A program made the position numbers and the translations under genes. Positions 57,025 through 61,040 of a DNA stretch of 64,000 nt are shown piece after piece. This DNA comes from a phage. The stretch is from the sequence record OZ336096.1, one strand, 5' to 3'. Position 1 is the first letter of the stretch. Every line of letters begins with the position of its first letter. Below the pieces are notes generated by a model. The model did not search any database and had not been told where the DNA came from. It saw nothing but the letters and a program-made list of their open reading frames with translations.

Positions 57025-58440
57025 ATGAGCGAATTATTTAAACATGCGCACCTTCATGCAGGTCGAACTGAAAATGGTGCTGTAAACCATACTTCATCAA
57101 TGTCTGCTCTTGTAGACTTTTACAAAGCTGCTGGTTCAAGCCGTAGCAACGTAGAAATCTTACCAGACCTGTTCTACAAAGCTTTGCGTGAAGATGTTGA
57201 TGTTGCAGTTCGTATTTTGCTTCACATGCGAGATGTACGAGAAGGTATGGGTGAGCGTAAAGCCTTCAGAACTGTTTTACTTCAAGCAATCGAAGATAAA
57301 GTTTTAGAGCCTACACAGGTTCTTCGTATTATGGATAAGATTGCAGAACTCGGTCGTTTTGATGACTTCAAAATCTTCGTGGGTACTCGTTTCGAGACAG
57401 ATGCCTTCAAGCATTTAGAAGCAGCATTACTAGACCCTGCAACAGCAGGTTTGGCAGCTAAGTGGTTACCACGAGTCAAACCACGTCATAAGCAGTTTGT
57501 AAAACGTTTCTGTAAGTTTGCCAACTTGAGTGAGAAAGAGTACCGCACACTGTTGTCTGCACTATCTGATACAGTTGAGCAAAAAATCTCTGCTAATGAT
57601 TTTGGTAAGATTGACTACAGCAAGATTCCTTCACTTGCTGCTGCACGTTACCAGAAGCTGTTTAACCGCAAGGATGGAGAACGCTACAAAGCTTACATTG
57701 AGTCCTTATCAAAGGGTGAGACTAAGATTAATGCTGGTGCTGTTTACCCATACGATGTGATTAAATCTGTTAAGCATGGTAATGCAGATGTTGCTAATGA
57801 GCAGTGGAAAGCACTACCAAACTGGATGGCAGAGGGTGAAAACATCTTGTGTATGACTGATGTTTCAGGCTCAATGTCTTGGGTGAATCTTGGTTCAATC
57901 ACCGCCCTTGATATTGGTGTATCACTTGCCTTGTATGTAGCAGAACGTAATACAGGTTGCTTTAAGGATGAGTTAATGGTTTATTCAACAAACCCTTACT
58001 TCATCGAACTGAGTGGTGATTTACGAAACCGTCATCGTCAGGTGATGCGACATGTTGAATATGGCTCAACTAACTTACAAGCAGCTTTTGACCGCATTCT
58101 TGAGACAGGTAAAAGAAATAACTTGACTCAGAAAGATATGCCAAGTAAGCTTATCATCTTCTCCGATATGGAGTTCAATCAGGTTGATGGAGCTAACGGT
58201 CGTACAAACTTTGAAGCAATTCAGAGTAAGTACAAAAAAGCTGGATATGAGATGCCACAACTGGTATTCTGGTACTTAGCAAACCGTAATGGTACTTGCG
58301 AAGTGTCTGTTAAGGATAACGGTGTAGCAATGGTATCTGGTTTCTCTCCAGCCACTTTAAAAGCTCTGCTTGGTGGTGAGAAGTTTGACCCAATCAGCGT
58401 AATGCTCAAAGCAGTAATGATTGACCGTTATATCTGGTAA
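57025..58440 (+). CDS. von Willebrand factor A domain protein with N-terminal helical domain (possibly Ro60/TROVE-like)
   Basis: 471 aa; MIDAS-like DVSGSM in ILCMTDVSGSMSW and downstream vWA-like pattern; helical N-terminal ~270 aa. Confidence 0.5.
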   Translation: MSELFKHAHLHAGRTENGAVNHTSSMSALVDFYKAAGSSRSNVEILPDLFYKALREDVDVAVRILLHMRDVREGMGERKAFRTVLLQAIEDKVLEPTQVLRIMDKIAELGRFDDFKIFVGTRFETDAFKHLEAALLDPATAGLAAKWLPRVKPRHKQFVKRFCKFANLSEKEYRTLLSALSDTVEQKISANDFGKIDYSKIPSLAAARYQKLFNRKDGERYKAYIESLSKGETKINAGAVYPYDVIKSVKHGNADVANEQWKALPNWMAEGENILCMTDVSGSMSWVNLGSITALDIGVSLALYVAERNTGCFKDELMVYSTNPYFIELSGDLRNRHRQVMRHVEYGSTNLQAAFDRILETGKRNNLTQKDMPSKLIIFSDMEFNQVDGANGRTNFEAIQSKYKKAGYEMPQLVFWYLANRNGTCEVSVKDNGVAMVSGFSPATLKALLGGEKFDPISVMLKAVMIDRYIW

Positions 58441-59192: not shown

Positions 59193-59270
59193 GGTTATGT
59201 AGTTTAATCTGGTTAAAATACTCCCCTGTCACGGGAGATGATGAGGGTTCAAATCCCTTCGTAACCGCCA
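59193..59270 (+). tRNA. tRNA-Asp (GUC)
   Basis: Acceptor GGTTATG/CGTAACC, AC stem CTCCC/GGGAG, loop CTGTCAC. Confidence 0.7.
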
Positions 59271-59493
59271 AATTATAATAAGTATTTCAAGATGATGTTT
59301 TGAGAGGGCTATTTAGCCCCTCCCTTAAAGAGTTCTTACGAGTATTCTTTAAAGGAGCAGAAGACCAAATTCAGCAAGTACGTATGATATTTTCAAGCCA
59401 ATTTAATTTTGAAAAATTTAAAACTTGGTCTGGCTCAACAGATTTACAGAAGACCGTTTACAGCAAAACTTAAACAATCTATTTCTCCGGTAA

Positions 59494-59556
59494 AGAAAAG
59501 GCGAAGGTTCGATTCCTTCACTCGGCAGATGTCGAGTTGGTGTAATGGTAGCACTT
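59494..59556 (+). pseudogene. tRNA-like halves in permuted order (3' half then 5' half)
   Basis: GGCGAAGGTTCGATTCCTTCACTCGGCAG (T-arm + 3' acceptor) immediately followed by GTCGAGTTGGTGTAATGGTAGCAC (5' acceptor + D-arm); the two acceptor strands are complementary to each other. Confidence 0.35.
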
Positions 59557-59727
59557 AAGATGATAAACAACGGTCTGGTAATTATCTTTGTAGATAAGTT
59601 ATTAAGCTTACCTGTGAGTATGCGACCACAAAGGGTGAAAGGGTAAATTCTAGATTTAAACCCAACAAGGCACATCGCTACAGACCTTAAGCAAGTCTGG
59701 GTAGCTTATCTACAAAGATAATTTAAT

Positions 59728-59803
59728 GGAAGTGTAGCAGAATGGTGATGCGGCAGACTTTTAATCTGACAGGCGATGGGTTCGAATCCCTCCACTTCTA
59801 CCA
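59728..59803 (+). tRNA. tRNA-Lys (UUU)
   Basis: Acceptor GGAAGTG/CACTTCT, loop CTTTTAA, T-loop GGTTCGAATCC. Confidence 0.6.
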
Positions 59804-59807
59804 ATAT

Positions 59808-59884
59808 GGTTCAGTCGCAGATAAGGTAATGCAGGGGTCTCATAAGCCCTATGAATGTGGGTTCGATTCCCATCTGAACCTCCA
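59808..59884 (+). tRNA. tRNA with CAU anticodon (Met or lysidine-Ile)
   Basis: Acceptor GGTTCAG/CTGAACC, loop CTCATAA, T-loop GGTTCGATTCC. Confidence 0.6.
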
Positions 59885-59885
59885 A

Positions 59886-59961
59886 GCTGGTATAGTTAAG
59901 AAGGTTATAACACTCCCCTGATAAGGGAACATCGGTGGTTCGATTCCACCTACCAGTACCA
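59886..59961 (+). tRNA. tRNA-Ile (GAU)
   Basis: Acceptor GCTGGTA/TACCAGT, loop CTGATAA, T-loop GGTTCGATTCC. Confidence 0.65.
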
Positions 59962-60298
59962 ATTTCAATAAAGTTGTTGACATTGAGATGTGACCACTTT
60001 TTAGTAACTAAAATACTTCATAATATGTATAATTCAAACACCAATACATGAGCGTTAGACGTAACACAATGTGGGGAAATTTGTTGTACATATTCTGAAT
60101 AGTTTTCGTTGCGTAGCGTCTATTTTGCAAATTTAAAATAAATGCAAACGACAATGTTTTTCTGGCAGTAGCTTGATAGGCTAAACACCAGTGAGGTCTT
60201 CCAATCCCTCATCAAAGAATTTGGCGTACTAGCCCACGGTATGATTAATAAAGTGGGCATCTTTAAGGGCTTTCTAAGAGAGTCTTTAAAGATAATTA

Positions 60299-60380
60299 CG
60301 GGGCGTATCTCAGCTGTCTTCTAAACAGCCGTTAACCGAGTAAGTGGAGTATGCGGGTTCGAGTCCTGCCGCCTCGACCA
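60299..60380 (+). tRNA. atypical tRNA-like gene, possibly tRNA-Arg (UCU)
   Basis: Acceptor CGGGGCG/CGCCTCG + ACCA, T-loop GGTTCGAGTCC, perfect anticodon hairpin GCTGT-CTTCTAA-ACAGC, but no recognisable D-arm and a long segment after the anticodon arm. Confidence 0.35.
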
Positions 60381-60523
60381 ATTTAGTTAGCAGATTACTT
60401 AGACGACCTAAGCGGGTCTTCCTGTAGGGAGGTGGTCTGTATCTCATGTTTTCCAGAACATGTAAATAATCTGAGAAGAAGCTTGACAGTGTTGAGATAA
60501 TACGGTAAGCTTCGAATTATAGT

Positions 60524-60606
60524 ATGGGACGATGTTAAGACTCTAAGGCATGAGCAACGGCTTCCAACACCGTTTCAAAGGGGTTCAACTCCTCCGTCCC
60601 ATGCCA
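60524..60606 (+). tRNA. atypical tRNA-like gene, possibly tRNA-Trp (CCA)
   Basis: Acceptor ATGGGAC/GTCCCAT + GCCA, T-loop GGTTCAACTCC; anticodon region AACGG-CTTCCAACA-CCGTT allows a 7 nt loop (CCA) or a 9 nt loop; extra nucleotides in the D region. Confidence 0.4.
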
Positions 60607-60619
60607 AAGTCTTATTAGG

Positions 60620-60709
60620 GGTAGGTAGCGGCTAATGGTAGCCAAACTGTCTTGAAAACAGTTGCCACTGTAGAGATACGGTGAGGGTTCGACTCCTTTA
60701 CTTACCGCC
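60620..60709 (+). tRNA. tRNA-Ser (UGA), long variable arm
   Basis: AC stem ACTGT/ACAGT, loop CTTGAAA, long variable arm, T-loop GGTTCGACTCC; 3' end GCC (CCA not fully encoded). Confidence 0.65.
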
Positions 60710-60862
60710 TAATAAGATTTAAAGCCAAGCTTCATTCGGATGTTGCTTTGGTATCCCTCGTGTTGTCGAACACACTAATAAAGCACCTAGTAGGTGTCAC
60801 GGAGAAGAGATAATATCAAGCTCTCCAAAGGTCCTAGTCACCGGATTAAACAAGACTATGCA

Positions 60863-60884
60863 AAGACCTTTTTAGGTCTTTTTA
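60863..60884 (+). terminator. intrinsic terminator
   Basis: AAGACCTTTTTAGGTCTT hairpin followed by TTT. Confidence 0.5.
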
Positions 60885-60962
60885 GAGGGCTTCTAAGGTT
60901 ATTGCAGCTTGTTGTGGAACCTTGTTGCTTAGGTTCTTAGAAGTTCTCTAAAAAGATTTAAT

Positions 60963-61040
60963 GGGAGATTGACGGTAATTGGTAAACCTACCATCCTTAG
61001 AAGTTGGTGTTTGAGGGTTCGAATCCCTTGTCTCCTACCA
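60963..61040 (+). tRNA. tRNA with UAG anticodon (Leu-type), short variable arm
   Basis: Acceptor GGGAGAT/GTCTCCT, loop CTTAGAA, T-loop GGTTCGAATCC, discriminator A. Confidence 0.5.

What the first reader, a model, noticed from the sequence alone, without database searches (positions are those of the whole stretch)
60299..60606. Two atypical tRNA-like genes: one with no D-arm (Arg-type), one with an ambiguous anticodon loop (Trp-type)
60299-60380 has good acceptor and T-arms and a perfect anticodon hairpin (loop CTTCTAA, UCU) but no D-arm, and extra sequence after the anticodon arm. 60524-60606 has acceptor and T-arms, but its anticodon region AACGG-CTTCCAACA-CCGTT folds either as a 7 nt loop (CCA) with an imperfect stem or as a 9 nt loop with a perfect stem, and there are extra nucleotides in the D region. 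These are the only candidates for Arg and Trp in the set. Enlarged anticodon loops are a known feature of frameshift-suppressor tRNAs.
Basis: seen in the sequence. Interest (0 to 1): 0.45.

Follow-up and report, generated by a model that had tools for sequence, protein, structure and literature searches.

The report
Rewired phage arginine and tryptophan tRNAs
Two unannotated genes in a Felix O1-type phage's tRNA cluster are real but non-standard tRNAs, and the arginine one belongs to a widespread phage family in which half of the D-arm sits on the far side of the anticodon arm, a layout I found described nowhere.

Summary
Both elements are present exactly as described. ARAGORN misses them, and they would supply the only two amino acids (Arg, Trp) that its 24 tRNAs leave uncovered.

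Element A (60299-60380) is not simply D-armless. Across 45 distinct homologues from unrelated phages, the three bases after U8-A9-U pair with three bases 3' of the anticodon arm. Eight Watson-Crick combinations occur and no sequence is unpaired. The bases that follow, AAnTGGA, match a tRNA-Arg D-loop. So the 5' D-stem strand plus the D-loop appears to have moved into the variable region.

Anticodons in this family are almost all UCU, with rare CCU; distant relatives carry ACG, GCG and UCG. The discriminator is A or G, and CCA is usually encoded. Sister phages carry a canonical tRNA-Arg(UCU) at the identical locus.

Element B (60524-60606) is a tRNA-Trp(CCA)-like gene confined to Ounavirinae. 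It has an invariant 8-nt insertion before a short D-arm and a covarying 5-bp stem around nine bases. A cloverleaf tRNA-Trp in a relative has the same C31·A39 arm, so I do not favour the frameshift-suppressor reading.

Function in translation is inferred, not shown. I found no published description.

The parts
60299..60305 (+). Element A: acceptor stem, 5' strand (CGGGGCG)
   Evidence: Pairs with 60370-60376. All 7 pairs covary in 45 sequences, with 99.4% of cells paired.
60306..60308 (+). Element A: invariant UAU. I read it as U8, A9 and position 22.
   Evidence: Invariant in 45/45 sequences. The numbering is my inference.
60309..60311 (+). Element A: 5' strand (CTC) of the long-range D-like stem. 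I read it as positions 23-25.
   Evidence: Pairs with 60338-60340. Column pairs: 11-42 CG:45; 12-41 UA31/AU8/GC6; 13-40 CG38/GC4/UA3; none unpaired. Pair 12-41 ranks 8th of all column pairs by mutual information.
60313..60329 (+). Element A: anticodon arm GCTGT-CTTCTAA-ACAGC, with anticodon TCT at 60320-60322
   Evidence: All 5 stem pairs covary. The loop is CTTCTAA in 47 of 51 family variants, CTTCTAC in 3 and TTCCTAA in 1.
60330..60337 (+). Element A: linker CGTTAAC plus C. It is bulged between the anticodon stem and the D-like stem.
   Evidence: CGTTAA is invariant, including in the 17 loci harvested with a pattern that did not specify it. Base 60337 sits opposite A60312, like 44 opposite 26 (inference).
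60338..60340 (+). Element A: 3' strand (GAG) of the long-range D-like stem. I read it as positions 10-12.
   Evidence: Covaries with 60309-60311. The second GAG at 60347-60349 does not covary.
60341..60352 (+). Element A: displaced D-loop-like segment TAAGTGGAGTAT (U13, A14, A15, ..G18, G19, A20.., A21, U48 by inference)
   Evidence: TAA-n-TGGAGTAT is near-invariant although not specified in two of the three harvest patterns. It matches the D-loop AACTGGACA of the canonical tRNA-Arg allele.
60353..60369 (+). Element A: T arm GCGGG-TTCGAGT-CCTGC
   Evidence: 5 pairs, 99.1% of cells paired, 3 pairs with double changes.
60370..60380 (+). Element A: acceptor 3' strand CGCCTCG, discriminator A, encoded CCA
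   Evidence: The discriminator is A or G in 46 of 51 variants and CCA is encoded in 38 of 51.
60524..60530 (+). Element B: acceptor 5' strand ATGGGAC (A1-U72)
   Evidence: Pairs with 60596-60602. Pairs 1-72 and 2-71 change on both sides in Pectobacterium and Yersinia phages.
60531..60540 (+). Element B: invariant GATGTTAAGA between acceptor and D stem (a canonical tRNA has 2 nt here)
   Evidence: Invariant in all 9 variants across Felixounavirus, Mooglevirus and the Pectobacterium and Yersinia phages.
60541..60554 (+). Element B: short D arm CTC-TAAGGCAT-GAG
   Evidence: Seen as CTC/GAG, CAC/GTG and TAC/GTG. The middle pair is UA in 4 sequences and AU in 5.
60556..60574 (+). Element B: anticodon arm AACGG-CTTCCAACA-CCGTT, with anticodon CCA at 60564-60566
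   Evidence: Four of the five stem pairs change on both sides. The inner C·A or C·C is never a standard pair.
60580..60594 (+). Element B: T arm GGGG-TTCAACT-CCTC, flanked by an invariant A·C (60579/60595)
   Evidence: 4 pairs all paired, with one G-C to U-A double change.
60596..60606 (+). Element B: acceptor 3' strand GTCCCAT, discriminator G, encoded CCA
   Evidence: G73 and CCA are invariant in 9/9 variants.

Best explanation
Both elements are phage-encoded tRNAs with non-cloverleaf wiring. Together they most likely complete a 20-amino-acid tRNA set.

Element A is a tRNA-Arg(UCU).
- The segment that normally lies between positions 9 and 22 (the 5' D-stem strand 10-13 plus the D-loop 14-21) lies instead between the anticodon arm and the T arm.
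- The D-stem therefore forms as a long-range 3-bp helix (CTC 60309-11 with GAG 60338-40). It is continuous with, and presumably stacks on, the anticodon stem, as the D-stem does in a normal L-shape.
- The displaced D-loop (AAGTGGAGTA) can still supply A14, A15, G18, G19, A20 and A21. U8 and A9 stay after the acceptor stem, and a U before the T stem can serve as U48.
- The conserved CGTTAAY linker occupies the place of the variable loop.
- Inference: the molecule keeps the L-shape and the ArgRS identity elements (A20, C35, U36, A/G73). It would be made as a normal tRNA, by RNase P cleavage with an encoded CCA end. It would then read AGA, a codon that is rare in E. coli but makes up 26% of this phage's Arg codons.

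Element B is a tRNA-Trp(CCA) with the normal order of arms.
- It carries the same 'YGTTAAnn - 3-nt D strand - TAAG..GG' module as A.
- This leaves an 8-nt insertion after position 9, a 3-bp D-stem and a non-Watson-Crick 31·39.

Shown: the sequences, their conservation, the helices (by covariation), the restriction of anticodons to Arg, and allelic replacement by a canonical tRNA-Arg.
Inferred: the 3D equivalence, aminoacylation, use in translation, and any selective advantage of the rewiring.
For: Element A:
- Named-structure count on 45 distinct sequences: 94.9% of cells paired, covariation 0.776 versus 0.185 in shuffles (0/500 reach it) and at most 0.15 in slid controls.
- Long-range helix pairs 12-41 and 13-40 change on both sides in 14 and 7 sequences, with none unpaired.
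- A structure-blind mutual-information scan recovers 12-41 among the canonical helix pairs.
- The alternative partner, the second GAG, shows no covariation.
- Eight Watson-Crick versions of the helix occur: CTC/GAG, CAC/GTG, CAG/CTG, CAT/ATG, CGC/GCG, CGG/CCG, CTT/AAG and CCC/GGG.
- Family model R1 gives members 86-101 bits and canonical tRNAs at most 34 bits.
- Anticodon loop is CTTCTAA in 47/51 variants and CCU in 1. The discriminator is A or G in 46/51 and CCA is encoded in 38/51.
- More distant copies of the same layout carry ACG, GCG and UCG, all Arg anticodons.
- Felixounavirus REP7 has a canonical 77-nt tRNA-Arg(TCT) at the same position between near-identical flanks. That allele is found in 255 records, against 282 for A.
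- The family occurs inside tRNA clusters of Felixounavirus, T5-like, rV5-like and jumbo phages and of Streptomyces phages.
- AGA is 26% of Arg codons, at 10.0 per thousand.

Element B:
- 100% of cells paired, and 8 pairs with double changes in 9 sequences.
- A1-U72, G73 and anticodon CCA are present. By textbook knowledge these are the E. coli TrpRS identity set.
- Erwinia phage phiEa21-4 lacks B but has a cloverleaf tRNA-Trp and a canonical tRNA-Arg(AGA) in the homologous cluster.
- Its anticodon arm shows the same GGC-CUCCAAA-ACC core as B.
Against: - I have no expression, end-mapping, aminoacylation or decoding data.
- The long-range helix is only 3 bp. RNAalifold and single-sequence folding do not predict it.
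- The harvest patterns fixed some columns (CGTTAA, the loop, or GTATCTCA), so part of the apparent invariance is there by construction.
- The sequences are related, so shuffle statistics overstate independence.
- Mapping onto canonical positions (U8, A14, A15-U48, G18/G19, A20) is my reading. Those columns are invariant, so the mapping cannot be tested by covariation.
- An in-silico 'un-permutation' made ARAGORN, 45 as tRNA-Arg. Reversed or shuffled D segments gave 43/45, so that test does not discriminate.
- A subset of family members lacks an encoded CCA and has leader-trailer pairing that extends the acceptor stem to 9-15 bp. That is unusual for a tRNA precursor.
- For B there are only nine variants, from one phage subfamily.
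Confidence: 0.62

Rival explanations
1. Element A, and perhaps B, is a tRNA mimic that is not used in translation. It could be a decoy that soaks up a host tRNA-Arg-directed anticodon nuclease or another tRNA-binding defence protein. It could also be a tmRNA-TLD-like RNA that titrates SmpB or alanyl-tRNA synthetase, working with the tmRNA-like tag region immediately upstream.
For: - The fold is non-canonical and standard finders miss it.
- The window copy has G3·U70 plus A73, the alanine/tmRNA acceptor signature.
- A tmRNA-like tag region, ANDNVFLAVA**, lies 120 nt upstream.
- A TLD-only phage RNA has been reported in mycobacteriophage DS6A and proposed to inhibit tmRNA (PMC4131195).
- A decoy for an anticodon nuclease would also conserve the anticodon loop.
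Against: - G3·U70 is not conserved in the family: pair 3-70 is GC20/CG8/AU6/GU6/UA5.
- The upstream tag region is kept unchanged in phages whose allele is a canonical tRNA-Arg. It also occurs alone in HK620 and Kuttervirus. The family occurs without it in T5-like and rV5-like phages.
- The element has a full anticodon arm, which tmRNA TLDs lack.
- The discriminator is A or G, CCA is usually encoded, and there are five different Arg anticodons. These fit a chargeable Arg acceptor.
- Without A and B the cluster would lack exactly two amino acids.
Confidence: 0.2
2. Element A is a truly D-armless tRNA. The 7-nt connector would replace the D-arm, as in metazoan mitochondrial tRNA-Ser. The 23 nt after the anticodon arm would be a class-II-like long variable arm.
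For: - The Rfam tRNA model aligns it this way.
- RNAalifold predicts only the acceptor, anticodon and T helices.
Against: - The connector and the 'variable' region covary as a helix with no unpaired cells.
- No internal hairpin of the 23-nt region is supported; its bases are nearly invariant and look like a D-loop.
Confidence: 0.05
3. Element B is a recoding tRNA. One version is a +1/quadruplet frameshift suppressor acting through a 9-nt anticodon loop. The other is a UGA-reading tRNA-Trp whose altered D region and anticodon stem loosen wobble discrimination, as in the Hirsh G24A and A9C mutants and the 4-bp-stem tRNA-Trp.
For: - The covarying 5-bp stem encloses 9 nt, and the inner pair is never Watson-Crick.
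- The region around positions 9-24 is heavily altered.
- Changes at A9, G24 and 27:43 of tRNA-Trp(CCA) enable UGA reading (PMC13092985).
Against: - The same C31·A39 arm occurs in a normal-cloverleaf tRNA-Trp of phiEa21-4.
- The 7-nt core of several variants, CUCCAAA, equals the E. coli tRNA-Trp loop (E. coli sequence from textbook knowledge).
- The top pair 27:43 is Watson-Crick in all nine variants, so B is not the 4-bp-stem type.
- B is the only Trp candidate, so it must read UGG.
- TGA terminates 10 of 44 long ORFs in the window.
Confidence: 0.1
4. One or both elements are decaying pseudogenes left in the tRNA cluster.
For: - Standard finders miss them.
- B has several A·C and C·A mismatches.
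Against: - A keeps 86-101-bit model scores across unrelated phage families, with compensatory changes in every helix.
- B is 100% paired with 8 compensated pairs across genera.
- A truncated copy that really is decayed (L139) looks quite different, with its T arm lost.
Confidence: 0.03

Closest known systems
Canonical bacterial and phage tRNA-Arg(UCU), e.g. the allele in Felixounavirus REP7 or E. coli argU
   Same: - 7-bp acceptor stem, A/G73, CCA and a T arm with GTTCRA.
- 5-bp anticodon stem with loop CUUCUAA.
- D-loop motif AAnTGGA, including A20.
- Same genomic slot.
   Different: - The 5' D-stem strand and the D-loop lie 3' of the anticodon arm.
- The D-stem is a long-range helix enclosing the anticodon arm.
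- A conserved CGTTAAY linker replaces the variable loop.
Metazoan mitochondrial D-armless tRNAs, e.g. tRNA-Ser(UCU/GCU) (PMC7609411)
   Same: - No D hairpin between the acceptor and anticodon stems.
- A short connector sits there instead.
   Different: - Those tRNAs lose the D-stem and D-loop altogether and rely on adapted partner proteins.
- This family keeps both, relocated.
- It is expressed in bacteria that have standard translation factors.
Class II tRNAs and allo-tRNAs with long variable arms or 8/4 and 9/3 acceptor branches (PMC5389517)
   Same: - Extra nucleotides between the anticodon and T arms.
- Found in phage tRNA clusters.
- Missed or misnamed by standard tools.
   Different: - Those keep a normal D hairpin, and their variable region forms its own hairpin.
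- Here the acceptor/T branch is the standard 7/5, and the extra region pairs with the 5' connector.
Circularly permuted tRNA genes (Cyanidioschyzon merolae) and YrlA Y RNAs (PMC4201824)
   Same: tRNA parts occur in a non-standard linear order while keeping the nucleotides used in tertiary interactions.
   Different: - Those are whole-molecule circular permutations. One type is repaired by processing; the other has a closed acceptor stem.
- Here one internal segment is transposed, and the ends remain a normal open acceptor stem with CCA.
tmRNA tRNA-like domain and the TLD-only RNA of mycobacteriophage DS6A (PMC4131195)
   Same: - No D-stem hairpin.
- T arm plus acceptor stem.
- G3·U70 and A73 in the window copy.
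- A tmRNA-like tag region next door.
   Different: - G3·U70 is not conserved.
- A complete anticodon arm with Arg anticodons is present.
- Linkage to the tag region is not conserved.
tRNA-Trp(CCA) variants that read UGA (Hirsh G24A, A9C, 4-bp anticodon stem; PMC13092985), compared with element B
   Same: A CCA anticodon combined with changes in the position 9/D-stem region and in anticodon-stem pairing.
   Different: - B's unpaired position is the bottom pair 31·39, not the top pair 27:43.
- B carries an 8-nt insertion rather than point changes.
- I have no evidence of UGA reading.

Membership tests
tRNA (canonical cloverleaf; Rfam RF00005) | 7-bp acceptor stem with a discriminator base and a 3' CCA end | tested here: met
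   A: 7 covarying pairs, and CCA encoded in 38/51 family variants. B: 7 pairs, with G73 and CCA invariant.
tRNA (canonical cloverleaf; Rfam RF00005) | T arm: 5-bp stem with G53-C61 and loop TTCRANY | tested here: met
   A: G-C invariant at the last pair, loop TTCGAGT. B: 4 bp plus an invariant A·C, loop TTCAACT or TTCGAAT.
tRNA (canonical cloverleaf; Rfam RF00005) | Anticodon arm: 5-bp stem and 7-nt loop with U33 and a purine at position 37 | tested here: met
   A: met in full. B: the 5-bp covarying stem encloses 9 nt. The 7-nt core has U33 and A37 but is closed by C·A or C·C, so B is borderline.
tRNA (canonical cloverleaf; Rfam RF00005) | D hairpin (stem 10-13/22-25 with loop) located between position 9 and position 26 | tested here: not met
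   A: only 7 nt at that place, and the D-stem partner lies 3' of the anticodon arm. B: a hairpin is present but is preceded by an 8-nt insertion.
tRNA (canonical cloverleaf; Rfam RF00005) | Score at or above the Rfam gathering threshold (29 bits) | tested here: inconclusive
   A: 31.2 bits in a 671-nt search, but 23.3 bits (tRNA-Sec) in a 6-kb search. B: 16.9 bits, below threshold.
tRNA (functional definition) | Aminoacylation by the cognate synthetase and decoding on the ribosome | not testable with these tools
   Indirect support only: identity nucleotides, restriction to Arg anticodons, and allelic replacement by a canonical tRNA-Arg.
tmRNA tRNA-like domain | Conserved G3·U70 alanine identity pair, and no anticodon arm | tested here: not met
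   Pair 3-70 is G·U in only 6 of 45 sequences, and a full anticodon arm is present.
Mitochondrial-type D-armless tRNA | The D-arm is replaced by an unpaired connector, with no D-stem or D-loop equivalents elsewhere | tested here: not met
   The connector pairs with the region 3' of the anticodon arm, and a D-loop-like AAnTGGA follows.
Frameshift-suppressor tRNAs with enlarged anticodon loops (element B) | An 8- or 9-nt anticodon loop that changes the decoding frame | tested here: inconclusive
   Nine bases are enclosed by the covarying stem. The same arm is found in a cloverleaf tRNA-Trp of a related phage. Decoding was not tested.
4-bp anticodon-stem tRNA-Trp(CCA) (Blastocrithidia type) | Unpaired top pair 27:43 of the anticodon stem | tested here: not met
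   The top pairs are Watson-Crick or G·U in 9/9 variants. The non-pair is at the loop end. Definition taken from PMC13092985.

The most novel reading that the evidence does not exclude
The rewired tRNA-Arg family is a fully functional elongator tRNA whose secondary structure is not a cloverleaf. It would be a natural segment-transposed tRNA that still forms the L-shape and is accepted by bacterial RNase P, ArgRS, EF-Tu and the ribosome.

On this reading, phages maintain and exchange it, often next to HNH endonuclease genes, because the changed connectivity lets it escape host tRNA-directed defences or turnover that act on canonical tRNA-Arg. Element B would then be a second tRNA built with the same D module.
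Probability: 0.3. Interest if true: 0.92.

Novelty: new variant of a known kind. Interest (0 to 1): 0.8.

Why it matters
[quoted passage not shown] A 2020 review of non-canonical tRNAs lists nothing like this and does not mention phages (PMC7609411).
- A natural family that keeps the core nucleotides but changes strand connectivity would show that the L-shape, not the cloverleaf, is what bacterial translation requires.
- It would also give a ready-made test of how ArgRS (A20 recognition), RNase P, EF-Tu and modification enzymes read tRNA architecture.
- It could provide a scaffold for orthogonal tRNAs.
- On the practical side, it exposes a systematic annotation gap. These genes are unannotated, labelled 'tRNA-OTHER', or mislabelled in hundreds of phage genomes; Streptomyces phage Yaboi, for example, lists its copy as tRNA-Val(aac).
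- It may also bear on the arms race between phage tRNAs and host tRNA-cleaving defences.

Tried and rejected
- **tmRNA hypothesis for A.** It was prompted by G3·U70/A73 and the adjacent Rfam tmRNA hit. I rejected it because G3·U70 is not conserved and the tag region and A occur independently of each other.
- **Pairing of CTC with the second GAG.** This is the single-sequence MFE structure. I rejected it because there is no covariation and 13 of 45 sequences are unpaired at the middle pair.
- **RNAalifold on the family.** It finds only the three standard helices, so the long-range helix rests on pair counts and mutual information, not on energy.
- **In-silico un-permutation.** ARAGORN as tRNA-Arg after the segment is moved, but 43/45 with a reversed or shuffled segment and 0/45 when it is deleted. 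The test reflects only spacing and is not evidence.
- **Promoter and terminator scan of 59250-61000.** Counts are no higher than in shuffles. The TTGACA boxes I saw by eye at about 59977 and 60484 remain unsupported.
- **Bacterial genome scan.** It was capped at 120 rows, and only 2 were real family members, both on MAG contigs. This says the family is rare there but does not measure it.
- **IMG/VR scan for B.** The 14-base pattern returned mostly chance hits, and all real ones were Ounavirinae.
- **Literature.** Sequence-string and keyword searches found no description. Subscription-only papers were not searched.
- **PDB sequence search of the neighbouring 471-aa protein.** No hits.
- **Rfam search of the permuted tRNA-like RNA.** It matched no Y-RNA family.
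Full report
**Setting.** The window comes from a Felix O1-type phage (Felixounavirus, Ounavirinae). The region around the finding is 97-99% identical to many such genomes. ARAGORN finds 24 tRNA genes between 58606 and 63556, all on the + strand. They cover every amino acid except Arg and Trp. The two elements lie in gaps of this cluster.

**Checking the observation.**
- Element A (60299-60380) has a 7-bp acceptor stem, A73 and an encoded CCA. It has a standard T arm and a perfect anticodon arm with loop CTTCTAA. Only 7 nt separate the acceptor from the anticodon stem, and 23 nt separate the anticodon stem from the T stem.
- The Rfam tRNA model can align A only by deleting the D-arm and inserting 20 nt. 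It scores 31.2 bits in a small search but 23.3 bits, as tRNA-Sec, in a 6-kb search.
- Element B (60524-60606) scores 16.9 bits, again as tRNA-Sec.

**Element A belongs to a large family.**
- BLAST finds it in 282 phage records. These include Felixounavirus, T5-like Klebsiella phages, rV5-like phages, jumbo phages of the 121Q/PBECO4 type, and Streptomyces phages.
- Where annotated at all, it is called tRNA-Arg or tRNA-OTHER. In Streptomyces phage Yaboi it is listed as tRNA-Val(aac).
- Three pattern scans of IMG/VR, after removing chance hits, gave about 50 distinct variants.
- One caveat applies throughout. Each pattern fixed some bases, so part of the invariance is by construction. No single column was fixed in all three scans.

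**The key result for A is a long-range helix.**
- I aligned 45 distinct sequences.
- The three bases after the invariant UAU pair with three bases that follow the conserved CGTTAAn linker 3' of the anticodon arm.
  - Pair 11-42 is always C-G.
  - Pair 12-41 is U-A in 31 sequences, A-U in 8 and G-C in 6.
  - Pair 13-40 is C-G in 38 sequences, G-C in 4 and U-A in 3.
  - No sequence is unpaired at any of these.
- Eight Watson-Crick versions of the helix occur in all.
- For the whole structure, 94.9% of cells are paired. The covariation score is 0.776, against 0.185 in shuffles and at most 0.15 when partners are slid.
- A mutual-information scan that assumes no structure ranks 12-41 eighth of all column pairs, among the canonical stem pairs.
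- The rival partner favoured by single-sequence folding, a second GAG nine bases downstream, does not covary.
- RNAalifold misses this short helix. The evidence is therefore comparative, not energetic.

**Reading the architecture (inference).**
- The 5' strand of the helix runs straight into the anticodon stem. One base (A60312) faces one base (C60337), much like the 26·44 juxtaposition in a normal tRNA.
- In a normal tRNA, the D-stem strand continuous with the anticodon stem is 22-25, and the opposite strand is 10-13, which leads into the D-loop.
- Here the opposite strand (GAG) is followed by U-AAGUGGAGUA-U. That reads as U13, A14, A15, n, U, G18, G19, A20, .., A21, U48.
- The canonical tRNA-Arg allele of a sister phage has the D-loop AACUGGACA.
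- U8 and A9 remain directly after the acceptor stem.
- Every nucleotide class used for the textbook tertiary contacts is therefore present and invariant: U8·A14, A15·U48, G18/G19 with the T loop, and A20 as the ArgRS determinant. Only the order along the chain has changed. Segment 10-21 has moved from between positions 9 and 22 to between the variable-loop position and the T stem.
- This is geometrically plausible but untested. Because these columns never vary, comparison cannot test the assignment.

**Evidence that A works as a tRNA-Arg.**
1. The loop is CTTCTAA in 47 of 51 variants, CTTCTAC in 3 and TTCCTAA (CCU) in 1.
2. More distant copies of the same layout score 38-55 bits with the family model, against at most 34 bits for ordinary tRNAs. 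They carry ACG, GCG, UCG and UCU, all Arg anticodons.
3. The discriminator is A or G in 46 of 51 variants, and CCA is encoded in 38 of 51.
4. In Felixounavirus REP7 a canonical 77-nt tRNA-Arg(TCT) occupies exactly the same slot between nearly identical flanks. That allele is about as common as the rewired one: 255 records against 282.
5. AGA makes up 26% of Arg codons in the window's long ORFs, at 10 per thousand. From general knowledge, it is one of the rarest codons in E. coli.
6. With A and B the cluster covers all 20 amino acids.

None of this shows charging or decoding.

**The tmRNA idea for A.** The window copy has G3·U70 and A73, and Rfam's tmRNA model hits the DNA just upstream. I therefore considered a tmRNA-like role and rejected it.
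- The 3-70 pair is G·U in only 6 of 45 sequences.
- The upstream element is retained when the tRNA allele is canonical.
- The upstream element occurs alone in HK620 and in Kuttervirus.
- The rewired tRNA occurs without it in other phage families.

**Element B.**
- Homologues are confined to Ounavirinae: Felixounavirus, Mooglevirus, and Pectobacterium and Yersinia phages.
- Nine variants give 100% paired cells and eight pairs with double changes.
  - The D-stem is seen as CTC/GAG, CAC/GTG and TAC/GTG.
  - Four of five anticodon-stem pairs covary.
  - The covarying stem encloses nine bases, and the inner C·A or C·C is never a standard pair.
- A1-U72, G73 and anticodon CCA match the E. coli tRNA-Trp identity set (textbook knowledge).
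- Erwinia phage phiEa21-4 lacks B. It has instead an ordinary-cloverleaf tRNA-Trp whose anticodon arm has the same GGC-CUCCAAA-ACC core, including C31·A39.
- The odd loop closure is thus a lineage trait of these phage tRNA-Trp genes, not a mark of a frameshift suppressor.
- B is not the 4-bp-stem type that reads UGA either, since its top pair is intact (PMC13092985).
- What is unusual is the invariant GATGTTAAGA between the acceptor and the D-stem, where a normal tRNA has two bases.
- The string YGTTAAnn, then a 3-nt D strand, then TAAG..GG is the same module that A carries 3' of its anticodon arm. This suggests the two share a building block through recombination (inference).

**Why rewire?** This is unknown. 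The rewired gene is about 86% identical across unrelated phage families and often lies beside HNH endonuclease genes. That fits spread as a mobile cassette. Escape from host tRNA-directed defences is an attractive idea, but it is speculation.

**Novelty.**
- Keyword and sequence-string searches of the open literature found no description.
- The 2020 review of non-canonical tRNAs does not cover it.
- The paper on novel cloverleaf forms describes different variants, the 8/4 and 9/3 acceptor branches.
- I class A as a new variant of a known kind, namely a tRNA with a new topology. B is an unusual member of the tRNA-Trp family.
- Paywalled work could not be checked.

Noticed in passing
window 60108-60297 (tag frame 60144-60173, stops to 60179); also L001 1505-1620, L002 1505-1600, L428 4501-4629: A tmRNA-like messenger domain without a tRNA-like domain. 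Rfam's tmRNA model matches positions 56-295 (16 bits, E 1.7e-4). It encodes ANDNVFLAVA** with the stop codons in a hairpin loop. Related tags are ANEEMYLAVA in HK620 (between pR' and tQ) and ANDNTFLAVA in Kuttervirus. The downstream hairpins covary (TGAGG/CCTCA versus CAGGG/CCCTG), and the loop GTGATTAATAA is conserved. The element is about 78-81% identical across unrelated enterobacterial phage families. Its function is unknown, and ARAGORN calls no tmRNA there.
   Followed up: partly
window 59396-59727 (T arm 59503-59519, closed acceptor-like hairpin 59520-59537, D arm 59540-59554): A permuted tRNA-like RNA in the order anticodon-like arm, T arm, acceptor stem closed by a loop, then D arm, with pairing flanks (AGACCGTT/AACGGTCT). 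The closed stem covaries: ACTCGGC/GTCGAGT, ACCCTTC/GAAGGGT and ACACGTT/GGCGTGT. This is the layout of YrlA-type bacterial Y RNAs (PMC4201824). Rfam gives no Y-RNA hit. One record annotates it as a 131-nt tRNA-Thr(GGT).
   Followed up: partly
window 57025-58440 (+): A 471-aa protein with DUF2828 and DUF7788 domains, PHROG 850 'RNA-binding protein', about 1 kb upstream of the Y-RNA-like element. It is possibly a Ro60-like partner. It has no sequence hit in PDB, and I did not run a fold prediction.
   Followed up: partly
L026, L035, L056, L068, L095, L133 (family members of element A): In some rewired tRNA-Arg genes the leader and trailer are complementary, which extends the acceptor stem to 9-15 bp, and no CCA is encoded. 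This is odd for a tRNA precursor and remains unexplained.
   Followed up: no
L003 1598-2107; hits H34, H106, H110, H111, H146: HNH endonuclease genes lie directly beside, or are annotated over, the rewired tRNA-Arg in several unrelated phages. This is a possible homing-mediated spread of the cassette.
   Followed up: no
L003 120-204 (Klebsiella phage Roth39, T5-like): Another 'tRNA-OTHER'. It has a normal D arm and T arm, but a 20-nt insert containing the hairpin GGGGAGCTATCCCC sits where the anticodon loop should be.
   Followed up: no
L002 1700-1930 (Kuttervirus sal1): Several T-arm-containing tRNA-like elements that ARAGORN does not call. One has a 14-bp terminal stem (CATCTTAGAGGACA/TGTCCTCTAAGATG). 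They sit downstream of the tmRNA-like tag region.
   Followed up: no
window 60009-60098: A 90-nt stretch upstream of the tag region is absent from REP7. It matches unrelated 52-kb phages (flopper, Bp10, PYps3T) at 80-85% identity.
   Followed up: no
window 60381-60523 and 60710-60962: These non-coding spacers inside the tRNA cluster are conserved. The second contains a long hairpin (60868-60967) that draws weak miRNA-precursor hits from Rfam.
   Followed up: no
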